Shown: one piece after another, positions 28,078-54,577 of the stretch | Position numbering within the stretch: position 1 is the first letter of the stretch | Layout of the letters: every line of letters begins with the position of its first letter | Position numbers and translations under genes: made by a program | Virus record (IMG/VR): IMGVR_UViG_3300036766_001333 | Coordinates: 13,881-77,880 of that record | Origin: a virus | Length of the DNA stretch: 64,000 nt | Direction: 5' to 3' (one strand) | Notes under the pieces: model-generated | What the model saw: only the letters and a program-made list of their open reading frames with translations | The model's database searches: none | What the model was told of the DNA's origin: nothing

Positions 28078-28908
28078 ATGAATTTCTATCAGTTAAATTT
28101 ATTTATAGAAGAAAATCCAATTCAGGATACGCCATCTCAAACAAATGTTGATGTAAATTTCAGACAATTGAGAAAACAAGGGATATTACATGCCAAAGAC
28201 CCTTTAAATAAATATAAAATAAATCAAGATATAGAAGAAGGAATAAATGTAGTTTGGATTACTGGAATGTATTCTGGAATGTGGCCTGGAACTGGAAAAT
28301 ATGGACCATTACTAAAATCACTAGGGTATAATATTAAAGTAATAAAAACGGCTGCTGACCCCGTGGCTGCTGCGACCGGGAGAATATCAAATACTATTGA
28401 TTGGGAGCCACTTACAAGAGCAAGTCAATATTTTGCATCTAGAATAGTCAACAGAAATCAAGATAAAGTAGGAAAAGAATTAGGTGGAGTAATTCCAGAT
28501 TTAATTGTAGGAAGCAGTCAAGGAGGGGCAATTGCATTATCTTTAGCACCTAATTTTCCAGAAATTCCCATGATATTAGTAGCTCCAGCATGGAAAATTT
28601 TTCATATTAAGCCAACATATCTCAACCCAAAATCAATTATCATTCATGGCAAAAGAGACGTTTCCGTTCCAACTAATGATAGCTTAGAGTTAGCCGAAAT
28701 AACTGGTTTATCCCCTAGCAGAATCATACTAACTAACGATGGTCATATTATATCAAATGGTTTTTCTAGAATAATTGAAGCAATTTTTAATCTTACTAAA
28801 AACTTATTACATCAAAAAAAAGTAAATGCAAAAAGAAGATATGCTTTAGAAAATAAAGAAATATCAATTCATGTGCCGAAATTTAATTTTTATATGTTTG
28901 AAGCCTAA
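28078..28908 (+). CDS. Alpha/beta hydrolase with internal-protein-like leader
   Basis: GSSQGG nucleophile elbow, HGKRD, NDGH triad; GCTAAATA 7 nt before the ATG. Confidence 0.8.
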   Translation: MNFYQLNLFIEENPIQDTPSQTNVDVNFRQLRKQGILHAKDPLNKYKINQDIEEGINVVWITGMYSGMWPGTGKYGPLLKSLGYNIKVIKTAADPVAAATGRISNTIDWEPLTRASQYFASRIVNRNQDKVGKELGGVIPDLIVGSSQGGAIALSLAPNFPEIPMILVAPAWKIFHIKPTYLNPKSIIIHGKRDVSVPTNDSLELAEITGLSPSRIILTNDGHIISNGFSRIIEAIFNLTKNLLHQKKVNAKRRYALENKEISIHVPKFNFYMFEA

Positions 28909-28920
28909 TAAATAATTATT

Positions 28921-29727
28921 ATGTTGAGATTTAAAGAATATTTAGCTATTGAAGAAGTTAGTGAAAACTTATTTGAATCCGACAGAGAAGGGATTCGTAT
29001 CAAAGGAATTTGGAAGCCCTCAGAAGAACCAATGCAAAAACCTCCTTTTCAACCTGGAGTTATCGACAAGGCCGCAGATATTATAATTAACCCTATATCC
29101 AGTGCTTTTTATGAAACAGGCAAATTATATAAAGGATTATTTAACACAGCAATAAAAATGGTGTTTAGAGGTATAGGCGAAGTCTCAAAACCTTTAATAA
29201 ATCCAGTTGTTGCAGCCATAGGCGGAGCTTTAAAGATAGTTTTCGATCCGGCAACAAGGTTAATCCAAACACAAGCAAACTTTGCTCATACTACAGGCAC
29301 AGATGAAATGATGCAAATTGAAAATGAAATTAAATCTAGATTTCCTAATAATCCACAATTACAACAATCAATTATGAGAAGTATTTCCAATAACTTAAAA
29401 CAAATACAATCTCAAATTCAACAAGTTCAAAGTTCGACAAAAAATAATCCAGCATTAAATAACATCAAAAATACAATAATTCAACATTTAAATGCTACTT
29501 GGAAGGCTTTTGCAAATGAAATTAAAAATTATCCAATGGCTATTGCAAATGCCTTTACTCATAGCTTTAAATCGGAAGATTTCCATTCAAGAAGGATTCC
29601 TCAAGAATTTCAAACACAAATAGAATTTTTAGCTAGACAAATTAAAAATCCAGATAAACAACGTCAGTTTTTACAATCTATGATTGAATTAGCAAACAGA
29701 ATAATTCACGAAATTCCCAATAATTAA
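28921..29727 (+). CDS. Putative internal head protein (MLRFKEYLAIEE leader), Gln/Asn-rich helical
   Basis: Leader resembles T4 internal-protein leaders; AATAAATA 6 nt before the ATG. Confidence 0.55.
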   Translation: MLRFKEYLAIEEVSENLFESDREGIRIKGIWKPSEEPMQKPPFQPGVIDKAADIIINPISSAFYETGKLYKGLFNTAIKMVFRGIGEVSKPLINPVVAAIGGALKIVFDPATRLIQTQANFAHTTGTDEMMQIENEIKSRFPNNPQLQQSIMRSISNNLKQIQSQIQQVQSSTKNNPALNNIKNTIIQHLNATWKAFANEIKNYPMAIANAFTHSFKSEDFHSRRIPQEFQTQIEFLARQIKNPDKQRQFLQSMIELANRIIHEIPNN

Positions 29728-30470
29728 ACATATTTTATTTTTTTAATTCTAAATTTTTCTGGATTGTCATCACCCATCCACCCAAAACCATATCTGTCTC
29801 TTGAATTGTAATAATCCCAAAATCCTTGTCCTAAATTCATTTTTGCAACCATTGTTCTCCACTGACGATCAGCAGTTCCCCTATTATAAGCAGTAGCTTT
29901 TGGGTGCGCACATCTTATCCCATAATCTCTTGCAACAATTTTACCCTCTAATGCACAATAATATGCTGCTATTACCTCAATACCCCAGCCAAATAAATTG
30001 ATGTTTAAATCCATTGGCCCAACTTTGTTAGAAATACTTGTTGATAAGCTCCAAATAGTACTATCAGTTGCAGGAACTTTTTTAACCCCGTCTCCCAAAT
30101 CTTCTAACATATATGGATTATAAGTCCAAGGTGTCCAATGAAAGTTAGGAGCATATATGCCTGCTTTATCACCATGTTTTTTATAAAAGTCTGTTAATCG
30201 AACCATCAATCTATTGTAATCGAAAATAGTCACATCAGAGTTAATTAGTAAAATAACATCAGCATCGGATAATTCAAGAGCTTTATTCCAAAGACCAGAA
30301 TAATAAATATTACCATATTTTTTAATTCTATCTGTTTCTTCAAATTCAGGATCATCTTTATGATGACAATTTAATAAAAATGTATCAGCCCCAATGTTAG
30401 TTAAATTTTCATATAAATCATATGCTTTTCTAAAAATAGCATAATTAAAAATAAAAACTTGGATTCGCAT
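29724..30470 (-). CDS. GT-A/GT2-like glycosyltransferase
   Basis: YYSGLWNKAL...ILLINSD and FGWGIE motifs. Confidence 0.7.
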   Translation of the reverse strand: MRIQVFIFNYAIFRKAYDLYENLTNIGADTFLLNCHHKDDPEFEETDRIKKYGNIYYSGLWNKALELSDADVILLINSDVTIFDYNRLMVRLTDFYKKHGDKAGIYAPNFHWTPWTYNPYMLEDLGDGVKKVPATDSTIWSLSTSISNKVGPMDLNINLFGWGIEVIAAYYCALEGKIVARDYGIRCAHPKATAYNRGTADRQWRTMVAKMNLGQGFWDYYNSRDRYGFGWMGDDNPEKFRIKKIKYV

Positions 30471-30472
30471 AA

Positions 30473-30480
30473 TATAAATA
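30473..30480 (+). promoter_or_regulatory. Canonical T4-type late promoter TATAAATA in a 14-nt divergent spacer
   Basis: Exact T4 late consensus 4 nt before ATG 30485. Confidence 0.7.
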
Positions 30481-30484
30481 TAGT

Positions 30485-30643
30485 ATGAATCTAAAGCTCT
30501 CTTTTAAAAAATGGCTAGAAGCTTCAGGAGCCGAAAGGATTAATCCAGATCAAACTCCAGACCCCGATAGTCTAGGTAAATTTAGATTGGACTTAACTCC
30601 TCTGCCTGGAAATAAAAAAGGTATGAAAAAAACCAAAAATTAA
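30485..30643 (+). CDS. Small putative internal head protein (52 aa), missed by ORF track
   Basis: MNLKLSFKKWLEASGAERINPDQTPDPDSLGKFRLDLTPLPGNKKGMKKTKN. Confidence 0.65.
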   Translation: MNLKLSFKKWLEASGAERINPDQTPDPDSLGKFRLDLTPLPGNKKGMKKTKN

Positions 30644-31194: not shown

Positions 31195-31232
31195 AAACTC
31201 TTCAAGTATATATCAATATCTGAAATGGTTTA

Positions 31233-33097: not shown

Positions 33098-34015
33098 ATG
33101 GCTTATCGTATTCTAAGCATTGATGGCGGAGGAATTTATGGTGCAATTTCAGCCACATTAATAGAAAGAATTCATAAAAAATACCCAAATTTCTTAAACA
33201 GTGTAGATTTATACGCAGGAACTTCTATTGGTGGCGTAATTTCTCTTTTAATTGCAAACGATTTTCACCCTAATGAAATCAAACAATTCTTTCTGAGATA
33301 TCCACCAATTATTTTTGAAAATAATTTCTTAAGAAGAATATTAAATTATTTTGGCATCACGGCAAAATACTCTAACAGAAATTTAACTTATGTGCTTTCT
33401 AAATATTTTGGTGATAAAACGTTAGGCAATTTACACAAAAAAGTTTTAATTCCTGCTTTTGCAATAAATTGTTGTGCAGGGCCGTCACAATGGCGAGCAA
33501 AAATATATCACAATTTTGAAGGATCGGATTCAGATAAAAATGAGAGCATAGCAAAAGTTGCATTAAGAACCACTGCTGCTCCTGTGTATTTCCCAATATT
33601 TGAAAACTATATTGATGGCACTCTAGTAGAAAATAATCCATCAATGTGTGCGATTGCTCAAACTCAAGATAATCGTGCCATAATAAATCCTCGGCCTGCC
33701 TTGAAAGATATAAAGTTAATTTCAATTGGAAGAGAACAAACGAACCATTATATCCAAGGGAAAAATTTAGACTATGGTTTCTTAAGATGGGTGAAGCCAT
33801 TAGTTCAGATGACTTTAGATAGGGATTGTAGAGTTGTACATTATCAAGTTGAAAAAATATTAGAAGAAAATAATTATTACAGACTTGCGCCAGTCCTTTC
33901 TCCAACCTTAGATAAAGGAATTGATAATTGGAGAAAAACAAATAGTATAATAAATGTTGCAAATCAATTTAATTTGGATGATGCATTCCAGTGGATTGAA
34001 AAAAATTGGTACTAA
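33098..34015 (+). CDS. Patatin-like phospholipase
   Basis: LSIDGGG, GTSIG, TAAPVYF, YIDG motifs. Confidence 0.9.
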   Translation: MAYRILSIDGGGIYGAISATLIERIHKKYPNFLNSVDLYAGTSIGGVISLLIANDFHPNEIKQFFLRYPPIIFENNFLRRILNYFGITAKYSNRNLTYVLSKYFGDKTLGNLHKKVLIPAFAINCCAGPSQWRAKIYHNFEGSDSDKNESIAKVALRTTAAPVYFPIFENYIDGTLVENNPSMCAIAQTQDNRAIINPRPALKDIKLISIGREQTNHYIQGKNLDYGFLRWVKPLVQMTLDRDCRVVHYQVEKILEENNYYRLAPVLSPTLDKGIDNWRKTNSIINVANQFNLDDAFQWIEKNWY

Positions 34016-42584: not shown

Positions 42585-45500
42585 ATGGCGTGGACAGATT
42601 TTTTTAAGCTTTTTAATAGTACCTTTACATTAGACCCATTATCTAAAAAATCAGATAGAAAAAATCTACCAAGCGCAGGCGTATCATCAAATGATGTTTT
42701 TCCTGATCCTAGAAATACTGATAGCTTATCTTCTGGGACAGGCGGCTTCATAAGAGTACAAAACGATTTAGTCGATCTTACAACTACAACTAATCGAGTA
42801 AACCGATATAAAGAATATGATAGATTAGTTGCAAGTATATCTGAAATTGAAATGGCAATGACAGTATTTGCCGATGAAGCTTGCGTATATGAAGATACAA
42901 TCATAAATACAGTCTTTCATGGCCCTAAAACCATTAAATGGCTACAACAAAATAAAACAGATGATAAGTTTCCAGTATATTGTTATGACTTTAAAAAAGA
43001 AGATTATACAGTTGGATGGTCCTATGCTCCAAGATTTGTTAAAAAAGCAAAAACCGTAAGGGTTATTCTTGATAATGGAGAAATAGAAATAGTAACTCCA
43101 GATCACAGAATACTAAGAAAAGATGGCGAATGGATAATGGCAGAAAATTTAAAGTTTGGTGATAAATTAATGCCATTTTACAAAATAAAAGCAAATCAAA
43201 ATTTAACTAAAGTTAAAACTAAACAATTTCCAAGAATTTTTACACATAATAAAGGCTGGATACATGAACGTCAATTTTTAGATGAATGGAGAAGTGGGAA
43301 AGATTTACCAGAATATGAAAAAGTAAACAAATTAGGCAGATTGCTAGCCCAAAAACTTCATGTAAAAGATATCGCAAAATTAATGGGAGTCGCAGCACCT
43401 ACCCTTGAATACCAGTTATCAAGTGAAGGATTTAGCTGTAAAGAATTCAGGTTATTATCTAAAAACTTATCTTACAGAAGGGTAATCAAAGTAGAACCCT
43501 GGCATGAATTAGATGTATATGATTTGTCTGTAGAAGATCATAAAAACTTTTGCACTCAGTCTTTAGTAATGCACAATTGTCAAAAAGATGAAGATGGACA
43601 AGTTTTCAAAATAACATGCAAAAATCAAGATGTAAAAGAAGAATTAGAAACTTTATTCTTTAAAGTCCTAGAATTCGATCAATTGAATATTTGGGATAAA
43701 GCTAAAAGACTATTCATAAAAGGAGATGCATTTTGGGAAATAGTAGTAGACCCGGATAATCCAAAAGATGGAATTCTAAAGATTGCCGATTTGCCCCCAG
43801 ATAATATGTATAGAATCGAATCGACTAAAGGCAAAGTTCTTGAATATCAACAAGCAAAAGAAGGTCCAGATTATCAGGCTTTACTAAAAGCTCCATTAGG
43901 AATGGCTACTGATAATGAATTAGCACAGTCTATGGCCATTAGATTTACCCCTGACCAAATCATACATTTAAGAATTGGAGATTATAGAAAATCCTTTTAT
44001 CCATATGGCGTTAGTTTAATAGAACCAGCCAGAGGACCAGCCCATCAATTAAAAATGATGGAAGATAGTATGGTCGTATATCGACTTTGCCTTGCTGGTA
44101 ATACTAGAATTAGAACGGCAGATTATTATAAGTATATTAAAGATTTAGATATTGGCGATATTGTTTATAGTTTCTCCGAATCTGGCAAACAAATGCCAAC
44201 GACAGTAGAAGCTGTTAAAAATAATGGAAAGCAAAAAGTTTATGACGTTATTTCTAGGCATGTAAGTATTCGTGGTAATGAAACGCATCCAATTTTAGTT
44301 AACAGAGATGGCGTCTATCAATATGTTGATGTTAAGAACTTAATTCCTGGTAAAGATAAATTTATATTAACCACTAAAGATGTTGGATTTATTCCTAGTA
44401 TTCCAAGGATTTACGGACCAATGTGGGCTAAGCTTAATGACGAAGCTAGAAAAGAATTTAAAAATAAACGCTTTAAAAACAAATCTCAACTAATGAGGCA
44501 ATGTTCTTCTGAATTTGGAAGAGTAAGACAATTCTTATATACTAAAGGTAAAGCATTGCCTTTAGAAAGAGCCAAAGAAATATGTAATATATTTGGCATA
44601 GATGAATCCAAATTATTGCTAGTTAATAAAGGGGAAAATAATTCTGAAAGAATAAGTTTACCTGAGCGAGTCACTGAAGAATTTGCTAAGTTATTTGGTT
44701 TTATTTGTGGTGATGGGTCTATTCATAACAACAATCAAATTTCATTTTCTTCTTCAGAAGACGACCAAATAAATCAATATTATTCTGGACTACTTCAAAA
44801 GTATTTTGGAAAGGTAAGATTCGAGTTAGATAAAAGATCAAAAAAGAAATTAGGCAAATTTGTATCTGATTCTACAACTGCATGTAAAGTATTTGGTGCT
44901 ATGGGATACATTCATAATCACCACAACACGAGAATACCAAAATGGGTGTTTAATTCTCCTAAAAATATTCGACGAGCATTCGTTGAAGGGTTGTCAGATG
45001 CAGATGGATGTGAGCGATTTACCAAGAAAGGCACTTGGTTTTCTACAATTGAATTGTGTAATGAGAAACTAATAGAAGACATTAAAGAATTATGGTCTTC
45101 TATTGGGCTTTGTTCAGGACAGTTAAAGAAAAGGACAAGAGAAAATAAGCACTTATTACTTGGTAGAAAGCTACCTGTAAAAACCACTTCTTATTTGGTT
45201 ACTATTAGTGATAATTTATTACCTAAAGAAGAAAATATAACAAAAGTAGTAGAGGTTGGAGAGGAAGATGTATATGACATCACTGTGAATTCTAATTATC
45301 ATAATTTTATAGCTAATGGCATTCCAGTTCACAATACAAGAGCGCCTGAGCGTAGAATATTTTACATAGACATCGGTGGTCTTCCCAGCTTTAAAGCTGA
45401 AGCTTTCATTAACAGAATGAAAGATCAGTTTAGGAAGAAGAAGATGACTCATAATATGAATAATAGTACGACTGGAGCTTCGGCTGTAGATGAAAGATGG

Positions 45501-46364
45501 CACGCTCCAGCCGTAGATGAGGATATTTGGATTCCAGTAAGACAAAATTCAACTACAAGAATAGACACTTTACCTGGCGCACAAAACTTAGGAGAAATAG
45601 ATGACACAGTTTATTTCAGAACCAAGTTATTTGCCGCACTTAACTTTCCACCTAACTACTTCTACTCACAAGATGCAAATGCTACTAGAATTACACTTTC
45701 AGCGAATGATGTAAAATTTGCCAAGTTAATAGAAAGATTACAAGCTTATATGGAATATGGCTATAAAGAAATAGCCATAAGACACTTAAAATTAATAGGT
45801 TATCCAGAAAATACATTTGAAGACATAAAAATAAAGATGACGCCACCTTCTGATTGGCGAGAATTAAGTCGAGCAGAAGTCATAACAAATAGAATTAATA
45901 ATGCTAATTCTCTTAAAGGCTCCCAATTGTTATCTGATTATGATATCTTAACAAAATGGATGAAATACCCAGAAGATGAAGCAAAAGAAATGATAGCTAG
46001 AATGAAAATTCAAAAATTAGAAGACTTAAAGCTTCAAGTTCTAGCTCAAAATCCTCAATTGCTTGGCGTTGGCATTCCAGGTATGGGCGAACAAGAAATT
46101 TCAGCACAGCCAGGCGGTCCTAACCCAATGCTAGGTCCAGATCAACAAATGCCACCAGGAGGTCCACCAGCAGGCCCAGAAGGTCCGCCACCTGAAGTTG
46201 CACCACAATCAATGGAGAAGTCTGAACCGGCACCTGAACCGCAATCTCAGGCCAAACCGTTACCTAATCCAACAGATGATGATATTATTAAATACGATCT
46301 TGAACTTCAGGACTACGATCAGGATCAAGATTATGAAGAACCTGACTATAGTGAAGGAGAATAA
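42585..46364 (+). CDS. Portal protein (T4 gp20-like) with two inteins; about 611 aa after splicing
   Basis: RYKEYD, YGVSLIE, MEDSMVVYRL/TRAPERRIFYIDIG, EDIWIP, IDTLPG motifs. Confidence 0.95.
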   Translation: MAWTDFFKLFNSTFTLDPLSKKSDRKNLPSAGVSSNDVFPDPRNTDSLSSGTGGFIRVQNDLVDLTTTTNRVNRYKEYDRLVASISEIEMAMTVFADEACVYEDTIINTVFHGPKTIKWLQQNKTDDKFPVYCYDFKKEDYTVGWSYAPRFVKKAKTVRVILDNGEIEIVTPDHRILRKDGEWIMAENLKFGDKLMPFYKIKANQNLTKVKTKQFPRIFTHNKGWIHERQFLDEWRSGKDLPEYEKVNKLGRLLAQKLHVKDIAKLMGVAAPTLEYQLSSEGFSCKEFRLLSKNLSYRRVIKVEPWHELDVYDLSVEDHKNFCTQSLVMHNCQKDEDGQVFKITCKNQDVKEELETLFFKVLEFDQLNIWDKAKRLFIKGDAFWEIVVDPDNPKDGILKIADLPPDNMYRIESTKGKVLEYQQAKEGPDYQALLKAPLGMATDNELAQSMAIRFTPDQIIHLRIGDYRKSFYPYGVSLIEPARGPAHQLKMMEDSMVVYRLCLAGNTRIRTADYYKYIKDLDIGDIVYSFSESGKQMPTTVEAVKNNGKQKVYDVISRHVSIRGNETHPILVNRDGVYQYVDVKNLIPGKDKFILTTKDVGFIPSIPRIYGPMWAKLNDEARKEFKNKRFKNKSQLMRQCSSEFGRVRQFLYTKGKALPLERAKEICNIFGIDESKLLLVNKGENNSERISLPERVTEEFAKLFGFICGDGSIHNNNQISFSSSEDDQINQYYSGLLQKYFGKVRFELDKRSKKKLGKFVSDSTTACKVFGAMGYIHNHHNTRIPKWVFNSPKNIRRAFVEGLSDADGCERFTKKGTWFSTIELCNEKLIEDIKELWSSIGLCSGQLKKRTRENKHLLLGRKLPVKTTSYLVTISDNLLPKEENITKVVEVGEEDVYDITVNSNYHNFIANGIPVHNTRAPERRIFYIDIGGLPSFKAEAFINRMKDQFRKKKMTHNMNNSTTGASAVDERWHAPAVDEDIWIPVRQNSTTRIDTLPGAQNLGEIDDTVYFRTKLFAALNFPPNYFYSQDANATRITLSANDVKFAKLIERLQAYMEYGYKEIAIRHLKLIGYPENTFEDIKIKMTPPSDWRELSRAEVITNRINNANSLKGSQLLSDYDILTKWMKYPEDEAKEMIARMKIQKLEDLKLQVLAQNPQLLGVGIPGMGEQEISAQPGGPNPMLGPDQQMPPGGPPAGPEGPPPEVAPQSMEKSEPAPEPQSQAKPLPNPTDDDIIKYDLELQDYDQDQDYEEPDYSEGE
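42882..43577 (+). mobile_element. Intein 1 (232 aa, no LAGLIDADG)
   Basis: ADEA|CVYEDT...VTPDHRIL...VYDLSVEDHKNF...MHN|C. Confidence 0.9.
44088..45335 (+). mobile_element. Intein 2 (416 aa) with LAGLIDADG homing endonuclease
   Basis: VYRL|CLAGNT...NETHPIL...FGFICGDG...FVEGLSDADG...VYDITV...VHN|T. Confidence 0.95.
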
Positions 46365-46735
46365 TGAATAAAAAATTTCTAGATGAAGCGATGCAACTTG
46401 AAAAACATTGGGCAAAATTCCCAAATTTATTCCCAAAAATGAAAGAAGGCCAAGTTCTTTTAGAGTCACAAAGACTTCGTAATGAATTTGATGTAGGCCA
46501 TGCTGGATTCTATGCAATTCATAATAGACTAAATCTAGAAAAAGTTAATAAATGTGGATGCTATCACTGTTTAACCATGTTTGACCCAAAAGAAATCAAA
46601 GAATGGGTTGATAATGATGACACAGCTATGTGCCCTTATTGTGAAATAGACTCAGTTATTCCAGAAAATACAGATTATTTTTTAAGCAAAGAACTTTTGA
46701 CCAAAATTAATGAACATTATTTTAAACAGGATTAA
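46364..46735 (+). CDS. Chimeric protein: major-capsid-propeptide-like N-terminus plus CGCxxC...CPxC Zn-finger domain
   Basis: FLDEAMQLEKHWA...VLLESQRLRNE matches the MCP N-terminus; TAATG coupling to the portal gene. Confidence 0.75.
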   Translation: MNKKFLDEAMQLEKHWAKFPNLFPKMKEGQVLLESQRLRNEFDVGHAGFYAIHNRLNLEKVNKCGCYHCLTMFDPKEIKEWVDNDDTAMCPYCEIDSVIPENTDYFLSKELLTKINEHYFKQD

Positions 46736-46994
46736 TTGTATCAGCAGCAGCAGGGACAACAATATCTGCCTCTTTATCTGAATCCGGCTTGTTGCTTACC
46801 GCTCCCTGATCCCTATATTTCTTCAATTCTTCGGCAATTTGCTCATCTTTTCTAGCCAAACTTCTAAAAAGCTCCACTATTGCATCTCGGTGACGCATAA
46901 CTGCCATCTGCGCAATGTTATTCAATATTTCATCTGATTCAAGATCGGCACAGGCTTCACTTCTTTGTTGATAATATTGCCGAAAACTTTTCAT
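46722..46994 (-). CDS. Small putative internal/prohead-core protein (MKSFRQYY leader)
   Basis: GAGGAG SD; TATAGATA upstream on the minus strand. Confidence 0.6.
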   Translation of the reverse strand: MKSFRQYYQQRSEACADLESDEILNNIAQMAVMRHRDAIVELFRSLARKDEQIAEELKKYRDQGAVSNKPDSDKEADIVVPAAADTINPV

Positions 46995-47090
46995 TTTTTA
47001 ACTCCTCTTGCATATCTATAAGATAGACTCATATTTTTAAGAGTCACTGTATTAATAATTGTAAGAATTCACTATAGGAGTTATCAAAAT

Positions 47091-48857
47091 ATGAAGAGAA
47101 AATTAATCAGTCATGAAGGTTTTGACAAACTTAATGAAGGTTCATTTTGTGTTGTAGAAAACGAACTCGCCCAAGCTGAAGATGTTATATCTAAAGTAGT
47201 AGGCGTTAAAGGTTTGAAGCTAAATTGCTTCAACGAATCAACCGTAATCTATGAAACCCCAAGTAAAACTTTCTTACATGCTAATTATAAAATGAATGAT
47301 AAGAAAATTGTTTTGGAGAACATAGAAGAATTAATTATTGACGAACAATCAGCAAAACAAAAATCTAAAGCCATTGTTTCGAAAATGGTTGAAGAAATGT
47401 TACAGAAAAATGATGCAAAGGCAAATGATTTATTTAAAGAATATCTCTCATTGCCAATGGTTCGCAAAAATCTTTTAGAGTCAAAAGCTCCGCCATTTGT
47501 TAAGAAAGATAAGAAAGATGGCAAAAAAGATGACGAAGACAAAAAAAATGGCTTCTTTGGCAAAAAAGATGACGACAAGAAAGATAAGAAATTCAAATTC
47601 AAGAAAGTTGCCAAAAAGAAAATCCAAGAATGGTCAACTCTTTCTGAAAATGTATTAAATTATGTTGATTTTCATAATTTCAGCCCAACAATGAAAGATA
47701 CAAAAGCCTCCCATGATGAAAAAGGCAATGTGGTAGCTTTAAGTATTCCTAATTCACATCTTCGTAATGAAGGCAAGTTACTTTCTTTCAATTGGAAGGT
47801 TTTAGACACAGAAGTTAAAGTTCTTCGTTCAAAGGCAATGAATGTGACTGAAGATACTAACTTTAGTCGTGCTATGTCTGATCTTAAGAAATGCAATAAT
47901 CTCTCAGATAATAAAGCACTTGAAACAACTCTTGCTAATGTAGTTCAAGCTTGGCCACACTTAATTTACTTAACGCAATCAGAATTGGCAGCTAAAATTA
48001 GTGAGGCTCTTGAGACAGCAGGCGAAACTAATTACGACGATCAAACTTGCGAATTTATGGCAGAAGCTATTCTCCGTACAGTAGTAGAAGCCTATTCAGA
48101 AAGAGCAAGTAAAATCATTCGTCTGTCAGGTACAACAATCAAAGATAAATCAGATGACTTCTATGAAGATTTCCAAAGAGTAACTAAGGATTTCTATAAG
48201 TCAATTGATGAATCTATGAAAACTGAAATGCAAGTATTTACTGACCTTTATAACGCTTTAGTAGAAGTTTACAGGACTGCTCAAGGCGAAAGCAATGAAG
48301 TAGTTCGCAGTGAGGCCAATGGATTCTTACATGAACTTAAATCAGTTCTTGAACAGGAATCTAAACCAACATTAGAACTTGCAGAACAAGTTGCAAGTTG
48401 GTTGGTAAATCTTGTCGAAACTAATCTTGAAGGAAATGCATGGGATGTTTCTAACTCCCCTCACATGACAATTGTAGGCGATCATCCCCAAATGGCTAAG
48501 AATGCCAGCAAGGGTTATACCCCATCATCTGACTTCTCTGGAGATTGGGGTGACAGCGCTCCAGTAAGTGACGGCAAGAGCTACAAAGGTAACTTAGCCA
48601 ATGTAATGAGAAACGATAGCTGGGGTAATTGGTCAAGCGAAGAAACTTATCCTGGCCTTACTAATCCTTATGCCAAGGGCGTTGATGCAACTTGGACTAT
48701 GAAGGGAGAAAAAGGCGTAGATAAAGAAACTGATGGTTTGGTATTCGATGCCGAAGGCGATAAGACATGGCCTGGCTTAACTAATCCATATTGTCCAAAA
48801 GCCGAAACGCCACAAAGCTACAAAGCAAAAACTGATAACTTAGTTATAGATCAGTAA
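47091..48857 (+). CDS. Large head-module protein (probable prohead core/internal protein)
   Basis: Between portal and protease; K/D-rich tract; two PGLTNPY repeats; own terminator. Confidence 0.55.
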   Translation: MKRKLISHEGFDKLNEGSFCVVENELAQAEDVISKVVGVKGLKLNCFNESTVIYETPSKTFLHANYKMNDKKIVLENIEELIIDEQSAKQKSKAIVSKMVEEMLQKNDAKANDLFKEYLSLPMVRKNLLESKAPPFVKKDKKDGKKDDEDKKNGFFGKKDDDKKDKKFKFKKVAKKKIQEWSTLSENVLNYVDFHNFSPTMKDTKASHDEKGNVVALSIPNSHLRNEGKLLSFNWKVLDTEVKVLRSKAMNVTEDTNFSRAMSDLKKCNNLSDNKALETTLANVVQAWPHLIYLTQSELAAKISEALETAGETNYDDQTCEFMAEAILRTVVEAYSERASKIIRLSGTTIKDKSDDFYEDFQRVTKDFYKSIDESMKTEMQVFTDLYNALVEVYRTAQGESNEVVRSEANGFLHELKSVLEQESKPTLELAEQVASWLVNLVETNLEGNAWDVSNSPHMTIVGDHPQMAKNASKGYTPSSDFSGDWGDSAPVSDGKSYKGNLANVMRNDSWGNWSSEETYPGLTNPYAKGVDATWTMKGEKGVDKETDGLVFDAEGDKTWPGLTNPYCPKAETPQSYKAKTDNLVIDQ

Positions 48858-48961: not shown

Positions 48962-49642
48962 ATGAATCAAACTGTAATGTTATTAGAAGATTGTTGCGAC
49001 GGCACTTGTTTATTTGTAGACCTTAATGAATCCAATGTTGAAAAAGGTTTAATAAAATTTAGAGGTAAATTTCAAGAAGCCGAAGCTGTAAATAAAAACA
49101 AAAGAATGTATCCGTTTGCTGTTCTCGATGAGAATGTGCAAAAATTAACAGAGGTTGTAAAAGCCCGTGGATTAGTAGGCGAACTCGATCACCCAACTGA
49201 TTCTATTATCCATTTCAAAGAAGCATCACATATTATTACGAAATTAGTATGGGAAGGAAATATTCTTAATGGCGAAGGAGAAATTCTTAATACAGCACAT
49301 GGCAGACAATTAAAAGCATTAATTAGTGATGGAGTAAGAGTTGGTATTAGTAGTCGTGGTGTTGGTAATGGAAAAGTTAATGAAAATGGAATCCTTGTAA
49401 TTAGTGAAGGTTATAAATTAATTACATTTGATGCTGTAGCTGATCCCTCAACATTTGATGCTTATCAGCAACGTGTAACTGCTGCTAAAAGAGAAAATGT
49501 AATAGTTCCAAAAAATTTTGAAGATTATGTTACAAAAAATGAAACTAAGCGCATAGATAAAATAAGTAAAGAAGCAGTAGTAGCTGCTTTTAGTGGAATT
49601 ATTAAAGAACACAAAGATAAAATTTTAGAGAGGTTAAAATAA
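48962..49642 (+). CDS. Prohead protease (T4 gp21-like)
   Basis: NKNKRMYP, GELDHP, SHII, GISSRGVG, TFDAVADPS motifs; ATG 48962 with AAGGA SD. Confidence 0.95.
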   Translation: MNQTVMLLEDCCDGTCLFVDLNESNVEKGLIKFRGKFQEAEAVNKNKRMYPFAVLDENVQKLTEVVKARGLVGELDHPTDSIIHFKEASHIITKLVWEGNILNGEGEILNTAHGRQLKALISDGVRVGISSRGVGNGKVNENGILVISEGYKLITFDAVADPSTFDAYQQRVTAAKRENVIVPKNFEDYVTKNETKRIDKISKEAVVAAFSGIIKEHKDKILERLK

Positions 49643-49643: not shown

Positions 49644-50558
49644 ATGAGTAAAGTTATCGAAGCCCTTAAGAAACTCCTTCCTGAAGAAAATCTTACTGAA
49701 GTAGCTTCTACAGTTGAAGGCATGCTGTCTGAGGCTAAGCAAGAATTAGAAACCGAGTTTAATAAGAAACTTGAAGAAGCTTACTCAGAATTAGCAAACG
49801 AATTAACCAACGCAGAAAAAACTGCTGTTGAAGGTTACGAACAAGCCTTTTCAATTATAACCGATCTTCGTAATCGCATTGATACTCAGAAGACCGAAAT
49901 GGAAAAGGTAATGTACACAGGTTTCGAAGAAGCATATCAAATGATCGAAACCGAAAAGAAAAAGACCAGTTCTCTTGAAGTAGATGTATATGACGAATAT
50001 GACAAGAAACTTCAAGAAATGACAGAATATATTGTTGATCGTGTTGACGCTTTCTTGCAAGAGAAGGGCGCTGAAATTTATGAACAAGCCAAGAAAGACG
50101 TTCTTAATGACCCACGTATGGCGGAACATAAAGTCGCTTTAGACAAGATCGTAGACATCACTGCTACCTATCTATCAGACGAAGATATGCACCTCGCTAC
50201 TTCCAGTAAGTTAGAAGAAGCTAGCAAGAACATCGAACACTTGAATGCTCAGATCAAGATGATGGAAGCTCGCAGTATTAGACTTGATAATGAAAATCGT
50301 AAACTCAACGAATCAGTTCGCAAGAGTGCAGAAATGCTTAATGAGAACAAAGTTGTTGAGAAGAAAGAAAAAGTACAGAAAGCCAAGAATGTATCGGGGA
50401 GAGGGCATGTAGTAACAGAAGAAACCGTTGTTATTGCGGAACATAACAACAAGGACGCTACAGCCAATAAAGTAGAAGATACCGATGTATTAGTAGAAGG
50501 TTTAGGAATGGATAAAGAAACCCTAAACGCTTTAGCTGGTACACAGAAAGCAAATTAA
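49644..50558 (+). CDS. Prohead core scaffolding protein (gp22-like)
   Basis: Acidic coiled coil between protease and MCP with many (L/I/V)xE sites. Confidence 0.85.
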   Translation: MSKVIEALKKLLPEENLTEVASTVEGMLSEAKQELETEFNKKLEEAYSELANELTNAEKTAVEGYEQAFSIITDLRNRIDTQKTEMEKVMYTGFEEAYQMIETEKKKTSSLEVDVYDEYDKKLQEMTEYIVDRVDAFLQEKGAEIYEQAKKDVLNDPRMAEHKVALDKIVDITATYLSDEDMHLATSSKLEEASKNIEHLNAQIKMMEARSIRLDNENRKLNESVRKSAEMLNENKVVEKKEKVQKAKNVSGRGHVVTEETVVIAEHNNKDATANKVEDTDVLVEGLGMDKETLNALAGTQKAN

Positions 50559-50589: not shown

Positions 50590-52059
50590 ATGAATGCTAA
50601 TGCTAGATTTTTAAATGAAGCCCGTGAATTAGAGGGCAAATGGGCAAGAACAGGTTTGCTCGAAGGTATTGGGGACTACGACAAGAAGGGCGTATTCAAA
50701 GAGAACAAACATGATCGTGCTGCTGCTGCCGTCTTGTTCGAGAACCAAAGACTTATGAATGAAGTCTCCACCGATACTGGCGATATTGCACAGTTCAAGA
50801 GAATTTCTATTCCTCTTGTCCGTAGAATTTATCCTCAGTTAATCGCCAATAAGATCGTATCAGTACAGCCACTCTTAGGCCCAACTGGTTTGGTCTACTA
50901 CCTTCGTTTCCGTTATTCAAGTAACAAGGGTAGCGTTCGTGGTATGGATAATAACGGTGGCTTCCCAGGTGATGATGTAAACTCATTGATGCAGGGTGCA
51001 GATGGTACAGCACACCTCTCAAATATGTATTCTTCACAATTTGTGGAGAACGAAACTACCAGCACAGACCCAGGCGTAATCGCTATTGCAACATACGCCC
51101 CTCTCGAACACACACCAGTTCTCCCAGGAACTATGACTGGTACAGTGTTTGATGGCGCAGTCGCAATTCAGACTTTCACCGTGTCTGCTAGCACTGGTAC
51201 TTTCACCTTCAACCCAGCCGCTCCTGCTGGCGCTCATGCCACAGCCGGTTCTCTTAATGTTACAACTGGTGAAGTAACTATTACTTGGTCCGCTCCTGCT
51301 GGCCCAAATCATTTAGTTACAAGCTACGAATATAATATGGAATGCAATCAAGATTTACCAGAAATTAATCTTGTGGTCGAAAGTGAGGACATTACTGCTA
51401 AGACTCGTAAGTTGAAGGCAGTTTGGTCATACGAAGCTCAGCAAGACCTTCGCTCTCAGCACAATCTTGACGCTGAAGCCGAATTAACAGCAGTCCTTGC
51501 TCAAGAAATTAACCTTGAAATCGACCGTGAAGTATTAACCGACCTTCGTAATAATGCCGGTACAGTAGCAGCTTGGGATTACGCAACTGCCCTTGGCGAA
51601 ACCGTTAAGGAAAAGTATGAATCCCTCTATGTAAAAGTTGTAGAAGTAAGTGCAGTTATTCACAGAAAGACCTTACGTGGTGGTGCAAACTGGATCGTAA
51701 CTTCCCCTGAAGTTGCATCTATCTTTGAAACCGCAACAGCCGGTTTTGCTCCTGCACCTTCTGAAACTTTCACAAGCAGCTTGGGCATTCAGTATGTAGG
51801 CACAGTAAACAACCGTTGGAGATTATATAAAGACCCACTCTTCCTTACTAACCAAATCTTAATGGGTTATAAGGGTGATTCTTATATGGACTCTGGATAT
51901 TTTTACTGCCCATACGTTCCTCTTACTCAAACTCCAGTTGTTCTCGATCCTGAGAGCTTCTGCCCACGTAAGGGAATTTTAACTCGATACGGCAAGAAAT
52001 TATTGCGTGAAGGAGCCAAGTTCTACGCAAGAATGACAATTGCTAATTTTGTGATATGA
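50590..52059 (+). CDS. Major capsid protein (T4 gp23-like)
   Basis: PLVRR, VSVQP..GPTG, AKTRKLKA.W..E..QDL, EINLEIDRE, YCPYVPL, TRYG motifs. Confidence 0.97.
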   Translation: MNANARFLNEARELEGKWARTGLLEGIGDYDKKGVFKENKHDRAAAAVLFENQRLMNEVSTDTGDIAQFKRISIPLVRRIYPQLIANKIVSVQPLLGPTGLVYYLRFRYSSNKGSVRGMDNNGGFPGDDVNSLMQGADGTAHLSNMYSSQFVENETTSTDPGVIAIATYAPLEHTPVLPGTMTGTVFDGAVAIQTFTVSASTGTFTFNPAAPAGAHATAGSLNVTTGEVTITWSAPAGPNHLVTSYEYNMECNQDLPEINLVVESEDITAKTRKLKAVWSYEAQQDLRSQHNLDAEAELTAVLAQEINLEIDREVLTDLRNNAGTVAAWDYATALGETVKEKYESLYVKVVEVSAVIHRKTLRGGANWIVTSPEVASIFETATAGFAPAPSETFTSSLGIQYVGTVNNRWRLYKDPLFLTNQILMGYKGDSYMDSGYFYCPYVPLTQTPVVLDPESFCPRKGILTRYGKKLLREGAKFYARMTIANFVI

Positions 52060-52091
52060 TTTTTACACTGCTGCTATAATCAAGCAGACAT

Positions 52092-52122: not shown

Positions 52123-52166
52123 GTTGTTTTATTCTTTATCTTCCCACACTATAACACGATCAGAAG

Positions 52167-52424: not shown

Positions 52425-52505
52425 AAATGCTCCTCCTTTTTGTATGTGAGTTTTCCAAATTTTGAAAAACCAATGCTTTTTTTAAAACTAAATCATAAAT
52501 ACTAC

Positions 52506-53393: not shown

Positions 53394-53401
53394 GGAGAAT
53401 T

Positions 53402-53593
53402 ATGTTTACTCTAGAAATTTTGGCCAAAGATTTAAAAGAATTTGACGATAGGCTTAATGAGGCCAATATTGTTTACCGTATTGTTGGTAAAAGTGACGAT
53501 GGTACTAAAAAGACACTTAAGTTTAAAAAACAAGAGCAGTTAGATGCGGCTCAACTTATCTACACAGACATGACTAAACTTCCAGATAAATAA
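53402..53593 (+). CDS. Small hypothetical protein
   Basis: AAGGAG SD before ATG 53402. Confidence 0.6.
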   Translation: MFTLEILAKDLKEFDDRLNEANIVYRIVGKSDDGTKKTLKFKKQEQLDAAQLIYTDMTKLPDK

Positions 53594-53642
53594 TCATTTT
53601 TTACTCTTCCACATTTTTATAGTTGTCATTATAATCAAAATA

Positions 53643-54185
53643 ATGACAACTAAGGAATTATTAGAAATTTTAGATCGTACAAAATCAATGGATCGTTATA
53701 GGGAGGCTAAAAATCCTCCTCCAAAGCCGATTACTGCTAAACCTATCATAAATTGGAAAGTGAGAAAAGCTTTGAAAAACAGCATATTTAAGAAATATCT
53801 TATCATAATTGCCTGTCTTCTTGGAATTATAGTTTTATTTGTAATTACTCCTTTATGGGCAGTTTATCCTCCTTATGGCAAAGCTGTATTACTTACGATA
53901 CCTCCAATTCTCTTTATTTGTATTACATGGATGTTAGGCTGTTGGTGGGCCTATGATAAGGATAGACAGTTATTTTTTGCTATTAATATGGGAGGTATAG
54001 GTATTAGGCTTAGTTTTGGATTGATGTGGACTATTTTTGTTTTTAAGATTCCAGACATAGATCATGAGATGTTTGTATTTGCTTTAATGGCAATGTGGGT
54101 ACTATTCACCATACCGGAGATAGGTATGGTGAATGAATTTTCTAATAAACTGGAAGCTACTGCTGAATTAGAGCCAACTGACTAG
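53643..54185 (+). CDS. Four-TM membrane protein
   Basis: Four hydrophobic segments; TATAAT 7 nt before the ATG. Confidence 0.7.
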   Translation: MTTKELLEILDRTKSMDRYREAKNPPPKPITAKPIINWKVRKALKNSIFKKYLIIIACLLGIIVLFVITPLWAVYPPYGKAVLLTIPPILFICITWMLGCWWAYDKDRQLFFAINMGGIGIRLSFGLMWTIFVFKIPDIDHEMFVFALMAMWVLFTIPEIGMVNEFSNKLEATAELEPTD

Positions 54186-54391
54186 CACTTTTTGTCTTTG
54201 CCCTTTACGAACTTTTCGAATGGCTTTTCTTTCTTAGCCTTTTCGATTTTTTCTTTATGTTCTTCTGGTTCGCCTTCTTCATCGTCACCATCAAGGTCTT
54301 CGCCAGTTTCTTCTTCAGCATCTTCGACATCTTTTACATCTGCGTCGAACATTTTTTTCTTAGCTTCATAAAATTGTTGCCAGGTATTCAT
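54182..54391 (-). CDS. Small acidic/basic putative internal protein (MNTWQQFYE leader)
   Basis: GCTATATA 5 nt before ATG 54391; EEETGEDLDGDDEEGE tract then Lys-rich end. Confidence 0.65.
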   Translation of the reverse strand: MNTWQQFYEAKKKMFDADVKDVEDAEEETGEDLDGDDEEGEPEEHKEKIEKAKKEKPFEKFVKGKDKKC

Positions 54392-54421
54392 ATAATTATA
54401 TAGCAATTTAATAGATATTTT

Positions 54422-54577
54422 ATGCTAAATTTTATTGAATGGCTCAAGAAAGTTAAGGAAGCTTCAATCCCATATGACCCTAATTTAGATATAAGTGGTA
54501 GTGCAGGAGGATGGTGGGGTGCGCCTGGGAGTGGAGTAAAACATAAAAAACGTAAAAAGAAGAAGAAAAAGAGCTAG
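54422..54577 (+). CDS. Small putative internal protein with poly-Lys tail (51 aa), missed by ORF track
   Basis: MLNFIEWLKKVKEASIPYDPNLDISGSAGGWWGAPGSGVKHKKRKKKKKKS; AATAGATA 4 nt before the ATG. Confidence 0.7.
   Translation: MLNFIEWLKKVKEASIPYDPNLDISGSAGGWWGAPGSGVKHKKRKKKKKKS

What the first reader, a model, noticed from the sequence alone, without database searches (positions are those of the whole stretch)
28078..54577. Family of ORFs with T4 internal-protein-like capsid-targeting leaders, including an enzyme cargo
Leaders seen: MLRFKEYLAIEE (28921), MNLKLSFKKWLE (30485), MKSFRQYYQQRSE (46994, minus), MNTWQQFYE (54391, minus), MLNFIEWLKKVKE (54422), MNFYQLNLFIEE (28078, alpha/beta hydrolase) and possibly FKKWM (19261). 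They resemble the T4 capsid-targeting sequence MKTYQEFIAE, which gp21 cleaves after Glu. Each follows a late-promoter-like motif. The cargoes are unrelated: hydrolase, helical protein, acidic peptide, poly-Lys peptides. Inference: a modular set of packaged, injected effectors.
Basis: partly seen in the sequence, partly recalled or inferred. Interest (0 to 1): 0.78.

Follow-up and report, generated by a model that had tools for sequence, protein, structure and literature searches.

The report
T4-style capsid-address tags, huge phage
A fragment of an uncultured ~500-kb phage puts a short N-terminal tag, almost the same as the one phage T4 uses to load proteins into its head, on many unrelated proteins, so the proteins this phage probably packs and injects can be read from its sequence, although packaging itself is untested.

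Summary
The motif M-x-x-aromatic-x-x-aromatic-hydrophobic, then Glu, heads 6 of 97 ORFs on the 77.9-kb contig, about 0.3 expected. It heads 35 to 59 ORFs in the closest relative, LR756511.1 (595 kb), and 14 in a second complete relative.

- **T4 control:** a scoring matrix built only from the huge-phage leaders, run on all 1992 ATG starts of T4, ranks ipIII, ipII and ipI in the top four.
- **Matching positions:** the conserved positions (4, 7, 8, then Glu) are those that experiments found to govern T4 capsid targeting and processing.
- **Head genes:** the window encodes the gp21-type head protease, a scaffold candidate, a gp23-type capsid protein and a T4-type portal.
- **Promoter:** leader genes sit 4-8 nt behind a T4-late-like TA[A/T]ATA box.
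- **Cargoes:** they are mutually unrelated and include a serine hydrolase with an intact triad.

Best reading (about 0.6): capsid-targeting leaders removed by the head protease. Packaging, cleavage and injection are untested. The MNFYQLN leader is atypical and FKKWM is doubtful.

Earlier reports of this scan describe similar leaders on other T4-like phage DNA. I found no paper describing this expansion in huge phages.

The parts
28078..28908 (+). Leader-tagged serine alpha/beta hydrolase, 276 aa. Divergent leader MNFYQLNLFIEE at 28078-28113. TAAATA box at 28065-28070, 7 nt before the ATG.
   Evidence: 22 homologs keep an N-terminal leader and a variable linker; Ser147, Asp194 and His223 are invariant. 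AlphaFold2 mean pLDDT 87.4; Foldseek finds lidless alpha/beta hydrolases and esterases.
28921..29727 (+). Leader-tagged 268-aa helical protein. Leader MLRFKEYLAIEE at 28921-28956. TAAATA box at 28909-28914, 6 nt before the ATG.
   Evidence: The homolog P0027 (68% identical) keeps MLSFKEYLAIEE. No family assignment.
30485..30643 (+). Leader-tagged 52-aa basic micro-protein. Leader MNLKLSFKKWLE at 30485-30520, core offset by 3 residues. TAAATA box at 30475-30480, 4 nt before the ATG.
   Evidence: The LR756511.1 ortholog starts MRLDFKQWAES.
46722..46994 (-). Leader-tagged 90-aa acidic protein inside the head module. Leader MKSFRQYYQQRSE at 46956-46994. TAGATA at 47013-47018, 18 nt upstream, followed by GAGGAG.
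   Evidence: The ortholog starts MKRFLDYYRFRED.
54182..54391 (-). Leader-tagged 69-aa Asp/Glu-rich micro-protein. Leader MNTWQQFYE at 54365-54391. TATATA box at 54397-54402, 5 nt before the ATG.
   Evidence: The ortholog starts MKSWKDFLEG.
54422..54577 (+). Leader-tagged 51-aa protein with a poly-Lys tail. Leader MLNFIEWLKKVKE at 54422-54460. TAGATA box at 54412-54417, 4 nt before the ATG. Divergent partner of the previous gene across a 30-nt spacer.
   Evidence: No ortholog found in LR756511.1.
19261..19566 (+). Doubtful member, 101 aa. The core F-K-K-W-M lies at residues 12-16. TAAATA lies 14 nt upstream.
   Evidence: The segment is conserved in the ortholog, but position and promoter spacing are atypical.
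48962..49642 (+). Prohead maturation protease of the gp21 type, the presumed leader-removing enzyme.
   Evidence: phrog_207 at 3.7e-46. Pfam Peptidase_S77 at 8.9e-26. 30% identical to T4 gp21 over 220 residues.
49644..50558 (+). Scaffold (gp22-position) protein, 304 aa, helical and Glu/Lys-rich. Presumed docking partner of the leaders.
   Evidence: Lies between the protease and the capsid gene as gp22 does in T4. No family hit. The assignment rests on synteny and composition only.
50590..52059 (+). Major capsid protein of the gp23 type. Predicted propeptide is residues 1-58 (50590-50763), ending RLMNE|V.
   Evidence: phrog_138 at 2.8e-81. Pfam Gp23 at 3.6e-86, starting at residue 66. Aligned with T4 gp23 and gp24 around their cleavage sites.
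46364..46735 (+). 123-aa protein. Residues 2-41 copy the capsid-protein propeptide up to the predicted cleavage Glu; a Cys-rich domain follows. A second, different kind of possible capsid address.
   Evidence: BLASTP against the capsid protein, E=2e-05, residues 2-41 against 4-58. The LR756511.1 homolog lacks this N-terminal part.
47091..48857 (+). 588-aa protein of unknown family between portal and protease, where T4 has core proteins gp67 and gp68. Possible core component.
   Evidence: Synteny. No family hit. 50% identical ortholog in LR756511.1.
42585..46364 (+). T4-type portal protein with intein insertions. Part of the head module.
   Evidence: Pfam Portal_T4, Intein_splicing and LAGLIDADG_3. 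The relative lacks residues 514-917.

Best explanation
The short N-terminal peptides are capsid-targeting leaders of the T4 internal-protein type.

Proposed mechanism, by analogy with T4:
1. Each tagged protein is made late in infection.
2. Its leader forms a small amphipathic helix. The aromatic residues at positions 4 and 7 and the hydrophobic residue at 8 dock it onto the scaffolding core of the assembling prohead. Candidate partners are the gp22-position protein (49644-50558) and the 588-aa protein (47091-48857).
3. The capsid shell closes around the core.
4. The gp21-type protease (48962-49642) cuts after a Glu at about residues 9-13, freeing the mature protein inside the head.
5. The protein leaves with the DNA at the next infection.

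Shown here:
- The leader family exists and is far above chance.
- It is specifically like the T4 capsid-targeting sequence.
- It is linked to a late-type promoter.
- It sits on unrelated cargoes.
- It co-occurs with a T4-type head module.

Inferred only: docking, cleavage, packaging and ejection.

Lineage-specific features:
- Most leader genes have the promoter box only 4-8 nt before the ATG. If the geometry is as in T4, their mRNAs have almost no 5' leader.
- The closest relative carries dozens of tagged proteins, T4 only three or four. They include a CCA-adding-type nucleotidyltransferase, two RNA-repair-type domains, a C39-like cysteine peptidase and, in this window, a serine hydrolase.
For: 1. 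Enrichment: 6/97 ORFs here and 35/1090 in LR756511.1 fit the strict motif, against 0.3-0.4% at internal positions. With a flexible offset the counts are 9 and 59, against about 0.5 and 11 expected.
2. Unconstrained columns give the consensus M-K-T-F-x-E-W-L-E.
3. Independent positive control: the matrix built from the huge-phage leaders ranks T4 ipIII, ipII and ipI at places 2-4 of 1992 T4 starts.
4. In T4, targeting depends on residues 4 and 7 and processing on residues 8 and 10 (PMC9026906). These are the conserved columns here.
5. Peptidase_S77, Gp23 and Portal_T4 genes lie in the window. The predicted capsid-protein cleavage site has Met or Phe at P3 and Glu at P1, so Trp-Leu-Glu is a plausible site.
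6. Unbiased test: LR756511.1 genes chosen only by TA[AT]ATA 2-10 nt before the ATG show aromatic peaks at positions 4 and 7. Both positions are aromatic in 21/71 of these genes against 25/904 of the others, p=1e-13. The same box precedes tail, baseplate-wedge-ortholog and terminase genes.
7. Orthologs keep the leader while the rest diverges. All 22 hydrolase homologs have a leader followed by a linker of variable length. The model gives the leader as a low-confidence helix (residues 3-12) detached from the domain.
8. Synonymous codon use at conserved leader positions roughly follows genome usage. T4 ip genes have ordinary Shine-Dalgarno 5' ends but the same peptide. Selection therefore acts on the peptide.
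9. Replication: 14 hits in a second complete relative of 572 kb, promoter link p=5e-4. The exact pattern MKTFx[E/Q]W[L/F]E occurs 46 times in IMG/VR, nearly always at ORF starts. 7 of the 10 largest such contigs carry the gp21-type protease.
10. Mature parts are unrelated, and several are small and highly charged, like T4 internal proteins.
Against: - There is no virion proteomics, no N-terminal data and no RNA data. The phage is uncultured and from sediment, and no RNA run was listed.
- The Glu position varies (9, 10 or 12), and 8 of 41 strict leaders have no hydrophobic-x-Glu site within 20 residues. T4 uses Ile8-x-Glu10.
- Some tagged proteins are very large (949-1076 aa), or are enzymes that could just as well work in the cytoplasm without being packaged: CCA-adding type, HAD_SAK_1, tRNA_lig_CPD.
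- T4 gp61.1 scores above the T4 internal proteins but is annotated only as hypothetical. The motif may therefore not be sufficient or specific for packaging.
- Lower-scoring hits include probable false positives: a DegT aminotransferase and a DnaG-type primase.
- The scaffold assignment rests on gene order only.
Confidence: 0.6

Rival explanations
1. The leader is a shared N-terminal docking helix for some other common partner, not the prohead. Candidates are a chaperone, a protease or degradation adaptor, or another late assembly such as the tail or a cytoplasmic body. The likeness to the T4 tag would then reflect a generic amphipathic helix.
For: Cargoes include cytoplasmic-type enzymes and very large proteins. 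The Glu position varies, and 8 of 41 leaders lack a hydrophobic-x-Glu site. T4 gp61.1 has the motif but is annotated only as hypothetical.
Against: The matrix picks exactly the three T4 internal proteins out of 1992 T4 starts. The conserved columns match the mapped T4 targeting residues. The family co-occurs with gp21-type protease genes. The helix is acidic, not the cationic type that binds membranes.
Confidence: 0.2
2. The conserved start is an RNA-level or translation-level feature of nearly leaderless late mRNAs, such as an initiation-enhancing codon run, and not a protein signal.
For: Most leader genes have the promoter box 4-8 nt before the ATG, so the 5' end of the mRNA would lie at or near the start codon.
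Against: About half of the genes with the same promoter spacing have no leader, including structural ones. Synonymous codons at conserved positions roughly follow genome usage. Phe, Trp and Tyr interchange at positions 4 and 7. T4 ip genes carry the same peptide behind ordinary Shine-Dalgarno sites.
Confidence: 0.05
3. The tag is the recognition site of a modifying enzyme such as a radical-SAM/SPASM maturase. An earlier report of this scan concluded this for a shared N-terminal tag in phage RB43.
For: The only support is that earlier report (e1-127136). One radical-SAM gene exists in the 572-kb relative G001.
Against: There is no Radical_SAM match in LR756511.1, which has the most leaders, or in this contig, while the search rang in all 14 control genomes.
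Confidence: 0.03
4. The resemblance is chance or composition: AT-rich coding yields Lys-, Phe-, Asn- and Glu-rich N-termini.
For: GC is only 33% in the contig.
Against: Enrichment over internal positions is 10- to 20-fold. The family persists in relatives with 40-42% GC and in IMG/VR loci with up to 55% GC. Orthologs conserve it. The promoter link has p=1e-13.
Confidence: 0.01

Closest known systems
Capsid-targeting sequence of phage T4 internal proteins IPI, IPII and IPIII, removed by the gp21 prohead protease
   Same: - An N-terminal tag of about 10 residues with an aromatic at positions 4 and 7, a hydrophobic at 8 and then Glu.
- It sits on small, unrelated, often highly charged proteins.
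- A gp21-type protease, a gp23-type capsid protein and a T4-type portal are in the same genome.
- The huge-phage matrix retrieves the T4 internal proteins.
   Different: - 35 to 59 tagged ORFs in the closest relative and at least 8 on this fragment, against 3 or 4 in T4.
- Glu is most often at position 9 or 12, not 10.
- Trp is preferred at position 7.
- Cargo includes enzymes of 170-1000 aa.
- The genes abut their promoter box, whereas T4 ip genes have Shine-Dalgarno-led mRNAs.
- Packaging is untested here.
Hypervariable internal-protein loci of T-even phages, with diverse ORFs sharing a CTS-like start (Repoila et al. 1994, as cited in PMC9026906)
   Same: A changeable set of cargoes behind a conserved address peptide. 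Genes are present or absent between close relatives: the hydrolase and the 268-aa gene are missing at the syntenic place in LR756511.1.
   Different: Here the tagged genes are scattered over the whole 595-kb relative, not concentrated in one locus. The lineage is very distant from the T-evens: the capsid protein is about 32% identical to gp23.
Long propeptides of head and ejection proteins in phiKZ-like giant phages (SPN3US, 201phi2-1, phiKZ), cut by their prohead protease
   Same: A jumbo phage head holding tens of different proteins. N-terminal propeptides are proposed to target the proteins into the prohead. Cleavage is after Glu (PMC5694885).
   Different: Those propeptides are mostly 80-160 residues long and not alike, with sites such as A-x-E or S-x-E. 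Here the tag is a uniform T4-length peptide of 9-13 residues.
T4 Alt, a packaged and injected enzyme processed by gp21 at both ends
   Same: An enzyme cargo with an N-terminal propeptide. The hydrolase family here also has a conserved C-terminal tail that could be a second processed end.
   Different: The enzyme class is different (ADP-ribosyltransferase against serine hydrolase). The Alt leader (MELITELFDE) does not fit the motif found here.

Membership tests
T4-type capsid-targeting sequence (internal-protein leader) | Lies at the extreme N-terminus of the precursor and is about 10-20 residues long. | tested here: met
   The leaders begin at the initiator Met of ORFs whose starts are fixed by an abutting promoter box and by orthologs. 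IMG/VR matches are almost all at ORF starts.
T4-type capsid-targeting sequence (internal-protein leader) | Aromatic or hydrophobic residues at positions 4 and 7, the targeting determinants mapped in IPIII. | tested here: met
   In genes chosen only by promoter spacing, aromatic frequency peaks at position 4 (0.35) and position 7 (0.42) against 0.13 background. The T4 mapping is from PMC9026906.
T4-type capsid-targeting sequence (internal-protein leader) | A processing site: hydrophobic at position 8 and Glu at position 10 (the L/I-x-E motif of gp21). | tested here: inconclusive
   Position 8 was required to be hydrophobic by the search motif, so it is not an independent test. The first hydrophobic-x-Glu site falls at residues 9-13 in 30 of 41 leaders, but mostly as Ar7-hydrophobic8-Glu9. 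Only 4 have it at position 10, and 8 have none within 20 residues.
T4-type capsid-targeting sequence (internal-protein leader) | The genome encodes a gp21-family prohead protease and a scaffold core with a gp23-type shell. | tested here: met
   Peptidase_S77, Gp23 and Portal_T4 match. The scaffold is assigned by position only.
T4-type capsid-targeting sequence (internal-protein leader) | Sequence likeness to the T4 tags beyond the bare motif. | tested here: met
   The matrix built without any T4 sequence ranks ipIII, ipII and ipI at places 2-4 of 1992 T4 starts.
T4-type capsid-targeting sequence (internal-protein leader) | The tagged protein is incorporated into proheads and virions, and the leader is cleaved off. 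| not testable with these tools
   The phage is uncultured and from a sediment metagenome, and no proteomic or RNA data could be reached.
Alpha/beta-hydrolase fold serine hydrolase (cargo at 28078-28908) | Nucleophile elbow G-x-S-x-G with a Ser-Asp-His triad on an alpha/beta-hydrolase fold. | tested here: met
   GSSQGG with Ser147, plus Asp194 and His223, are invariant in 23 sequences. AlphaFold2 mean pLDDT is 87.4. Best Foldseek matches are 2qjw, 1ycd (FSH1) and esterases, at probability 1.00 but TM only 0.4-0.65. The Pfam FSH1 match is below its cut-off. The substrate is unknown.
Radical-SAM-linked N-terminal tag (earlier scan report on RB43) | A radical-SAM/SPASM enzyme is encoded in the same genome. 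| tested here: not met
   No PF04055 match in LR756511.1 or in this contig, with all 14 controls positive.

The most novel reading that the evidence does not exclude
In this huge-phage lineage a compact cassette of about 50 bp supplies late transcription, the translation start and the capsid address in one piece. The cassette is a late promoter box, 4-8 nt, the ATG and a 9-13-codon T4-type tag. Placed in front of any gene, it has built a head-packaged arsenal of up to several dozen proteins delivered ready-made with the DNA. In the closest relative the arsenal includes an RNA-repair kit (CCA-adding-type enzyme, HAD_SAK_1 and cyclic-phosphodiesterase-type domains), a cysteine peptidase, a serine hydrolase, and acidic and poly-Lys micro-proteins. 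If so, the set of injected proteins of uncultured giant phages can be read directly from their sequence.
Probability: 0.35. Interest if true: 0.75.

Novelty: new variant of a known kind. Interest (0 to 1): 0.58.

Why it matters
What giant phages carry inside their heads besides DNA is known only for a few cultured phiKZ-like phages, from laborious proteomics.

- **A sequence-only predictor.** If this T4-type tag marks packaged proteins, it predicts the virion cargo of uncultured 500-600-kb phages.
- **First-minute biology.** It would show that these phages may bring enzymes (RNA repair, peptidase, hydrolase) and charged DNA-associated peptides into the cell before any gene is expressed. That bears on how they survive host defences.
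- **Ready for the bench.** The tag is so close to the T4 one that it can be tested in T4 packaging assays.
- **Gene expression.** The promoter-abutting gene starts suggest nearly leaderless late mRNAs, which is of interest in its own right.

Tried and rejected
- **Near-identical DNA:** megablast of 20 kb against the phage collection found no match.
- **tRNAs:** none in the window.
- **Family searches on small cargoes:** PHROGs and Pfam gave nothing reliable for the 268-aa protein or the small proteins.
- **Hydrolase in cultured phages:** tblastn of the hydrolase against the phage collection found no match, so no cultured homolog with virion proteomics was found.
- **Expression data:** no RNA holder was listed.
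- **Late transcription factors:** tblastn with T4 gp55, gp33, gp45, gp22, gp67 and gp68 found nothing in either genome at E<=1e-3. The late sigma factor and the scaffold homology remain unshown.
- **Radical-SAM tag hypothesis:** rejected for lack of the enzyme.
- **RNA-level explanation:** rejected on codon usage and on leaderless-type genes that lack the tag.
- **Literature:** searches found no paper on an expansion of capsid-targeting tags in huge phages, and none on a CTAAATA-type late promoter in such phages.
- **268-aa protein family:** only two homologs. One keeps the leader and the other starts at an internal Met on a 1.4-kb contig, so it is uninformative.
- **Failed scripts:** searches failed for technical reasons and were repeated.

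Full report
**What the window is.** The window is bases 13881-77880 of a 77.9-kb IMG/VR contig. CheckV rates the contig 15% complete, which points to a phage of roughly 500 kb. GC is 33%. DNA runs that hold it are sediment metagenomes.

The head module is of the T4 type:
- large terminase, 39861-41648
- portal with inteins, 42585-46364
- a 123-aa gene and a 588-aa gene
- Peptidase_S77 (gp21-type) prohead protease, 48962-49642
- a 304-aa helical protein in the gp22 position
- Gp23-type major capsid protein, 50590-52059

The closest public genome is LR756511.1, an unannotated uncultured phage of 595 kb. Its capsid protein is 79.5% identical, and gene order is shared across window 25.6-54.8 kb. 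I fetched all of it. I also fetched T4 as a reference and a second complete relative of 572 kb with terminal repeats.

**The observation.** I made the pattern explicit as Met, two residues, an aromatic, two residues, an aromatic, then a hydrophobic residue.
- It heads 6 of 97 ORFs on the contig and 35 of 1090 ORFs in LR756511.1.
- At internal positions the same pattern occurs at 0.3-0.4%, and at 16 of 2951 internal Met.
- Columns the pattern does not fix are also far from background: Lys or Leu at 2, Thr at 3 (18/41), Glu/Gln/Asp at 6 (32/41), Glu at 9 (17/41) and at 12.
- The consensus reads M-K-T-F-x-E-W-L-E.
- If the aromatic core may start at residue 3 to 8, the counts rise to 9 and 59, against about 0.5 and 11 expected.

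- Strict fit: 28921, 46994(-), 54391(-) and 54422.
- Offset fit: 30485, supported by its ortholog, which starts MRLDFKQWAES.
- Divergent: 28078. All 22 homologs of this hydrolase carry a leader, many of them canonical (M-[NST]-F-[RK]-E-F-[FV]-E-A), followed by a linker of very variable length.
- Doubtful: FKKWM in 19261.

Two more strict leaders and one looser candidate lie on the same contig upstream of the window. One heads a 519-aa protein whose ortholog has a PolyA_pol (CCA-adding-type) domain. Another heads a 167-aa protein. The looser candidate heads a 442-aa protein.

**Is it the T4 tag?** I built a position matrix from the huge-phage leaders only and scored all 1992 ATG starts of ORFs of at least 30 codons in the six frames of T4. 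Places 2, 3 and 4 are ipIII, ipII and ipI. Place 1 is the hypothetical 54-aa gp61.1 (sequences).

A review of T4 head assembly reports that capsid targeting by the IPIII tag depends mainly on residues 4 and 7, and processing on residues 8 and 10 (PMC9026906). These are the conserved columns here. The match is imperfect at the cut site:
- Glu is most often at position 9 or 12, not 10.
- 8 of 41 strict leaders have no hydrophobic-x-Glu site within 20 residues.

Aligning the capsid protein with T4 gp23 and gp24 places its maturation site at RLMNE|V, and at LFNE|I in the relative. This protease therefore probably accepts Met or Phe at P3, which makes Trp-Leu-Glu plausible.

**Promoter link.** In LR756511.1 the hexamer TA[AT]ATA peaks sharply 4-5 nt before start codons. 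It is usually preceded by C or A, as in the T4 late promoter core. Seventy-one ORFs have it at 2-10 nt.

I then selected genes by this DNA feature alone. Aromatic frequency peaks at residue 4 (0.35) and residue 7 (0.42), against 0.13 elsewhere. Both positions are aromatic in 21 of 71 such genes against 25 of 904 others, p=1e-13. The other genes with this spacing include tail, baseplate-wedge-ortholog and terminase genes, so the box behaves like a late promoter.

In the window the box ends 4-7 nt before five of the six leader genes. The sixth, 46994(-), has it 18 nt upstream with a GAGGAG site between. From the known T4 geometry, where transcription starts a few nucleotides after the box (my own knowledge), these mRNAs would be nearly leaderless.

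The portal and protease genes have the box farther upstream. The capsid gene, the 588-aa gene and the 123-aa gene are preceded by ordinary GGAG-type sites. T4 ip genes have Shine-Dalgarno-led 5' ends.

Divergent pairs of leader genes, 19-30 nt apart, occur once in the window (54182-54391 and 54422-54577). They occur three times in the relative.

**Peptide or RNA?** Three results argue for the peptide:
- Synonymous codons at the conserved positions roughly follow genome usage.
- Phe, Trp and Tyr interchange at positions 4 and 7.
- Roughly half of the genes with identical promoter spacing have no tag.

**Cargoes.** After removing the leaders, the 69 proteins compared show no mutual similarity at E<=1e-4, apart from orthologs between genomes and one paralog pair.
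- In the window: a serine alpha/beta hydrolase, a 268-aa helical protein, two acidic small proteins and two basic micro-proteins, one ending in a poly-Lys run.
- The hydrolase has an invariant Ser147-Asp194-His223 triad. The model is confident (mean pLDDT 87.4), and its leader is a low-confidence helix detached from the domain. Foldseek finds lidless esterase-type hydrolases.
- In the relative, recognisable cargo domains are Peptidase_C39-like, PolyA_pol (CCA-adding type), HAD_SAK_1 and tRNA_lig_CPD.
- Low-scoring hits such as a DegT aminotransferase and a DnaG-type primase are probably false positives.

**Spread.**
- The exact DNA pattern for M-K-T-F-x-[E/Q]-W-[L/F]-E occurs 46 times in 43 IMG/VR loci. 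My rough estimate of the chance expectation is below one.
- Nearly all matches are at ORF starts and often lie behind CTA[A/G]ATA plus 4 nt. The loci have 30-55% GC.
- Seven of the ten largest such contigs carry the gp21-type protease, six of them at 61-67% identity. The three without it are 40-67% complete.
- The 572-kb complete relative has 14 matrix hits at the threshold set by T4 ipI, and the promoter link holds at p=5e-4.
- Density therefore varies: about 6-8 per 100 kb here and in LR756511.1, and about 2.4 per 100 kb in that relative and in T4.

**Rivals.**
- *Recognition site of a radical-SAM enzyme.* An earlier report of this scan concluded this for a shared phage N-terminal tag. LR756511.1 and this contig have no Radical_SAM match, while all 14 control genomes rang.
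- *Chance or composition.* The statistics and the conservation in orthologs contradict this.
- *A different docking partner.* This cannot be excluded without experiments and is the main alternative.

**Related feature.** Residues 2-41 of the 123-aa protein at 46364-46735 copy the capsid-protein propeptide up to the predicted cleavage Glu, and a Cys-rich domain follows. The relative's homolog lacks this part. This looks like a second way of addressing a protein to the prohead.

**Comparison and novelty.** The mechanism I propose is the known T4 one. The review cited above already suggests that the tag may be a general way for T4-like phages to load varied proteins. In phiKZ-like giants the propeptides are long and dissimilar (PMC5694885).

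What is new here:
- the lineage, a very distant phage of about 500 kb
- the scale, with dozens of tagged proteins in the closest relative
- the enzyme cargoes
- the promoter-abutting cassette

I found no paper on this. Earlier reports of this scan describe similar leaders on other uncultured T4-like phage DNA, including RNA-repair and CCA-adding cargoes. Those are unchecked notes, not support.

**Verdict.** Packaging, cleavage and injection remain to be shown.

Noticed in passing
window 28078-28908 and homologs P0002-P0025: The hydrolase family has a conserved C-terminal tail. A Glu-Ser or Glu-Cys pair is followed, a few residues later, by [IV]-N-[ILFM]-W-[LFIV]-A at the very end; in the window it reads NFYMFEA. 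This may be a second, C-terminal propeptide or tag, as in T4 Alt, which is processed at both ends.
   Followed up: partly
window 46364-46735: The 123-aa protein starts with a copy of the capsid-protein propeptide (residues 2-41 against 4-58, E=2e-05), ending at the predicted cleavage Glu. A Cys-rich zinc-finger-like domain follows. The LR756511.1 homolog lacks the copied part.
   Followed up: partly
T4 NC_000866 18966-19130 (-), locus L016: T4 gp61.1 is a 54-aa hypothetical protein with a Lys/Glu-rich tail. It starts MKTFKEFIKED and scores higher with the huge-phage leader matrix than ipI, ipII or ipIII. It could be an overlooked T4 head protein, or a sign that the motif is not specific.
   Followed up: no
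window 42585-46364: The portal gene is 1259 aa, with two Intein_splicing stretches and a LAGLIDADG-like domain. The relative's portal lacks residues 514-917.
   Followed up: partly
LR756511.1 at 580680-582206, 582920-583582, 411779-412324 and 429897-430484; contig G000 3189-4748: Leader-tagged proteins with CCA-adding-type (PolyA_pol), HAD_SAK_1, tRNA_lig_CPD and Peptidase_C39-like domains. This gives an RNA-repair theme among the tagged proteins. The CCA-type gene has a 58% identical ortholog just upstream of the window.
   Followed up: partly
window 54392-54421; LR756511.1 near 269.3, 398.8 and 473.5 kb: Divergent pairs of leader genes separated by only 19-30 nt recur four times. Each strand has its own TA[N]ATA box 4-10 nt before its ATG, so each promoter lies beside or partly within the other gene's start region.
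   Followed up: partly
LR756511.1 526567-526121 and 242992-242543: The relative has two gp21-like protease genes. The second is much more diverged (27% identical to T4 gp21). The SPN3US paper also reports a diverged protease paralog in giant phages.
   Followed up: no
window 33098-34015: A 305-aa ORF starts with a patatin-like G-G-G-x-x-G motif (…SIDGGGIYG…). Its homolog in LR756511.1 lies at a different place in the genome. It was not checked against any family library.
   Followed up: no
window 62453-63112: A 219-aa HNH / endonuclease-VII-type nuclease sits behind a promoter box 5 nt before its ATG. Its start, MNISKDFIE, looks like a leader but lacks the aromatic at position 4.
   Followed up: partly
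window 28078-29727 against L002 3000-3022: The hydrolase gene and the 268-aa gene are absent from the syntenic position in LR756511.1. They are adjacent again on a 4.3-kb metagenomic contig (P0002 and P0027). They seem to move together as a two-gene insert.
   Followed up: partly
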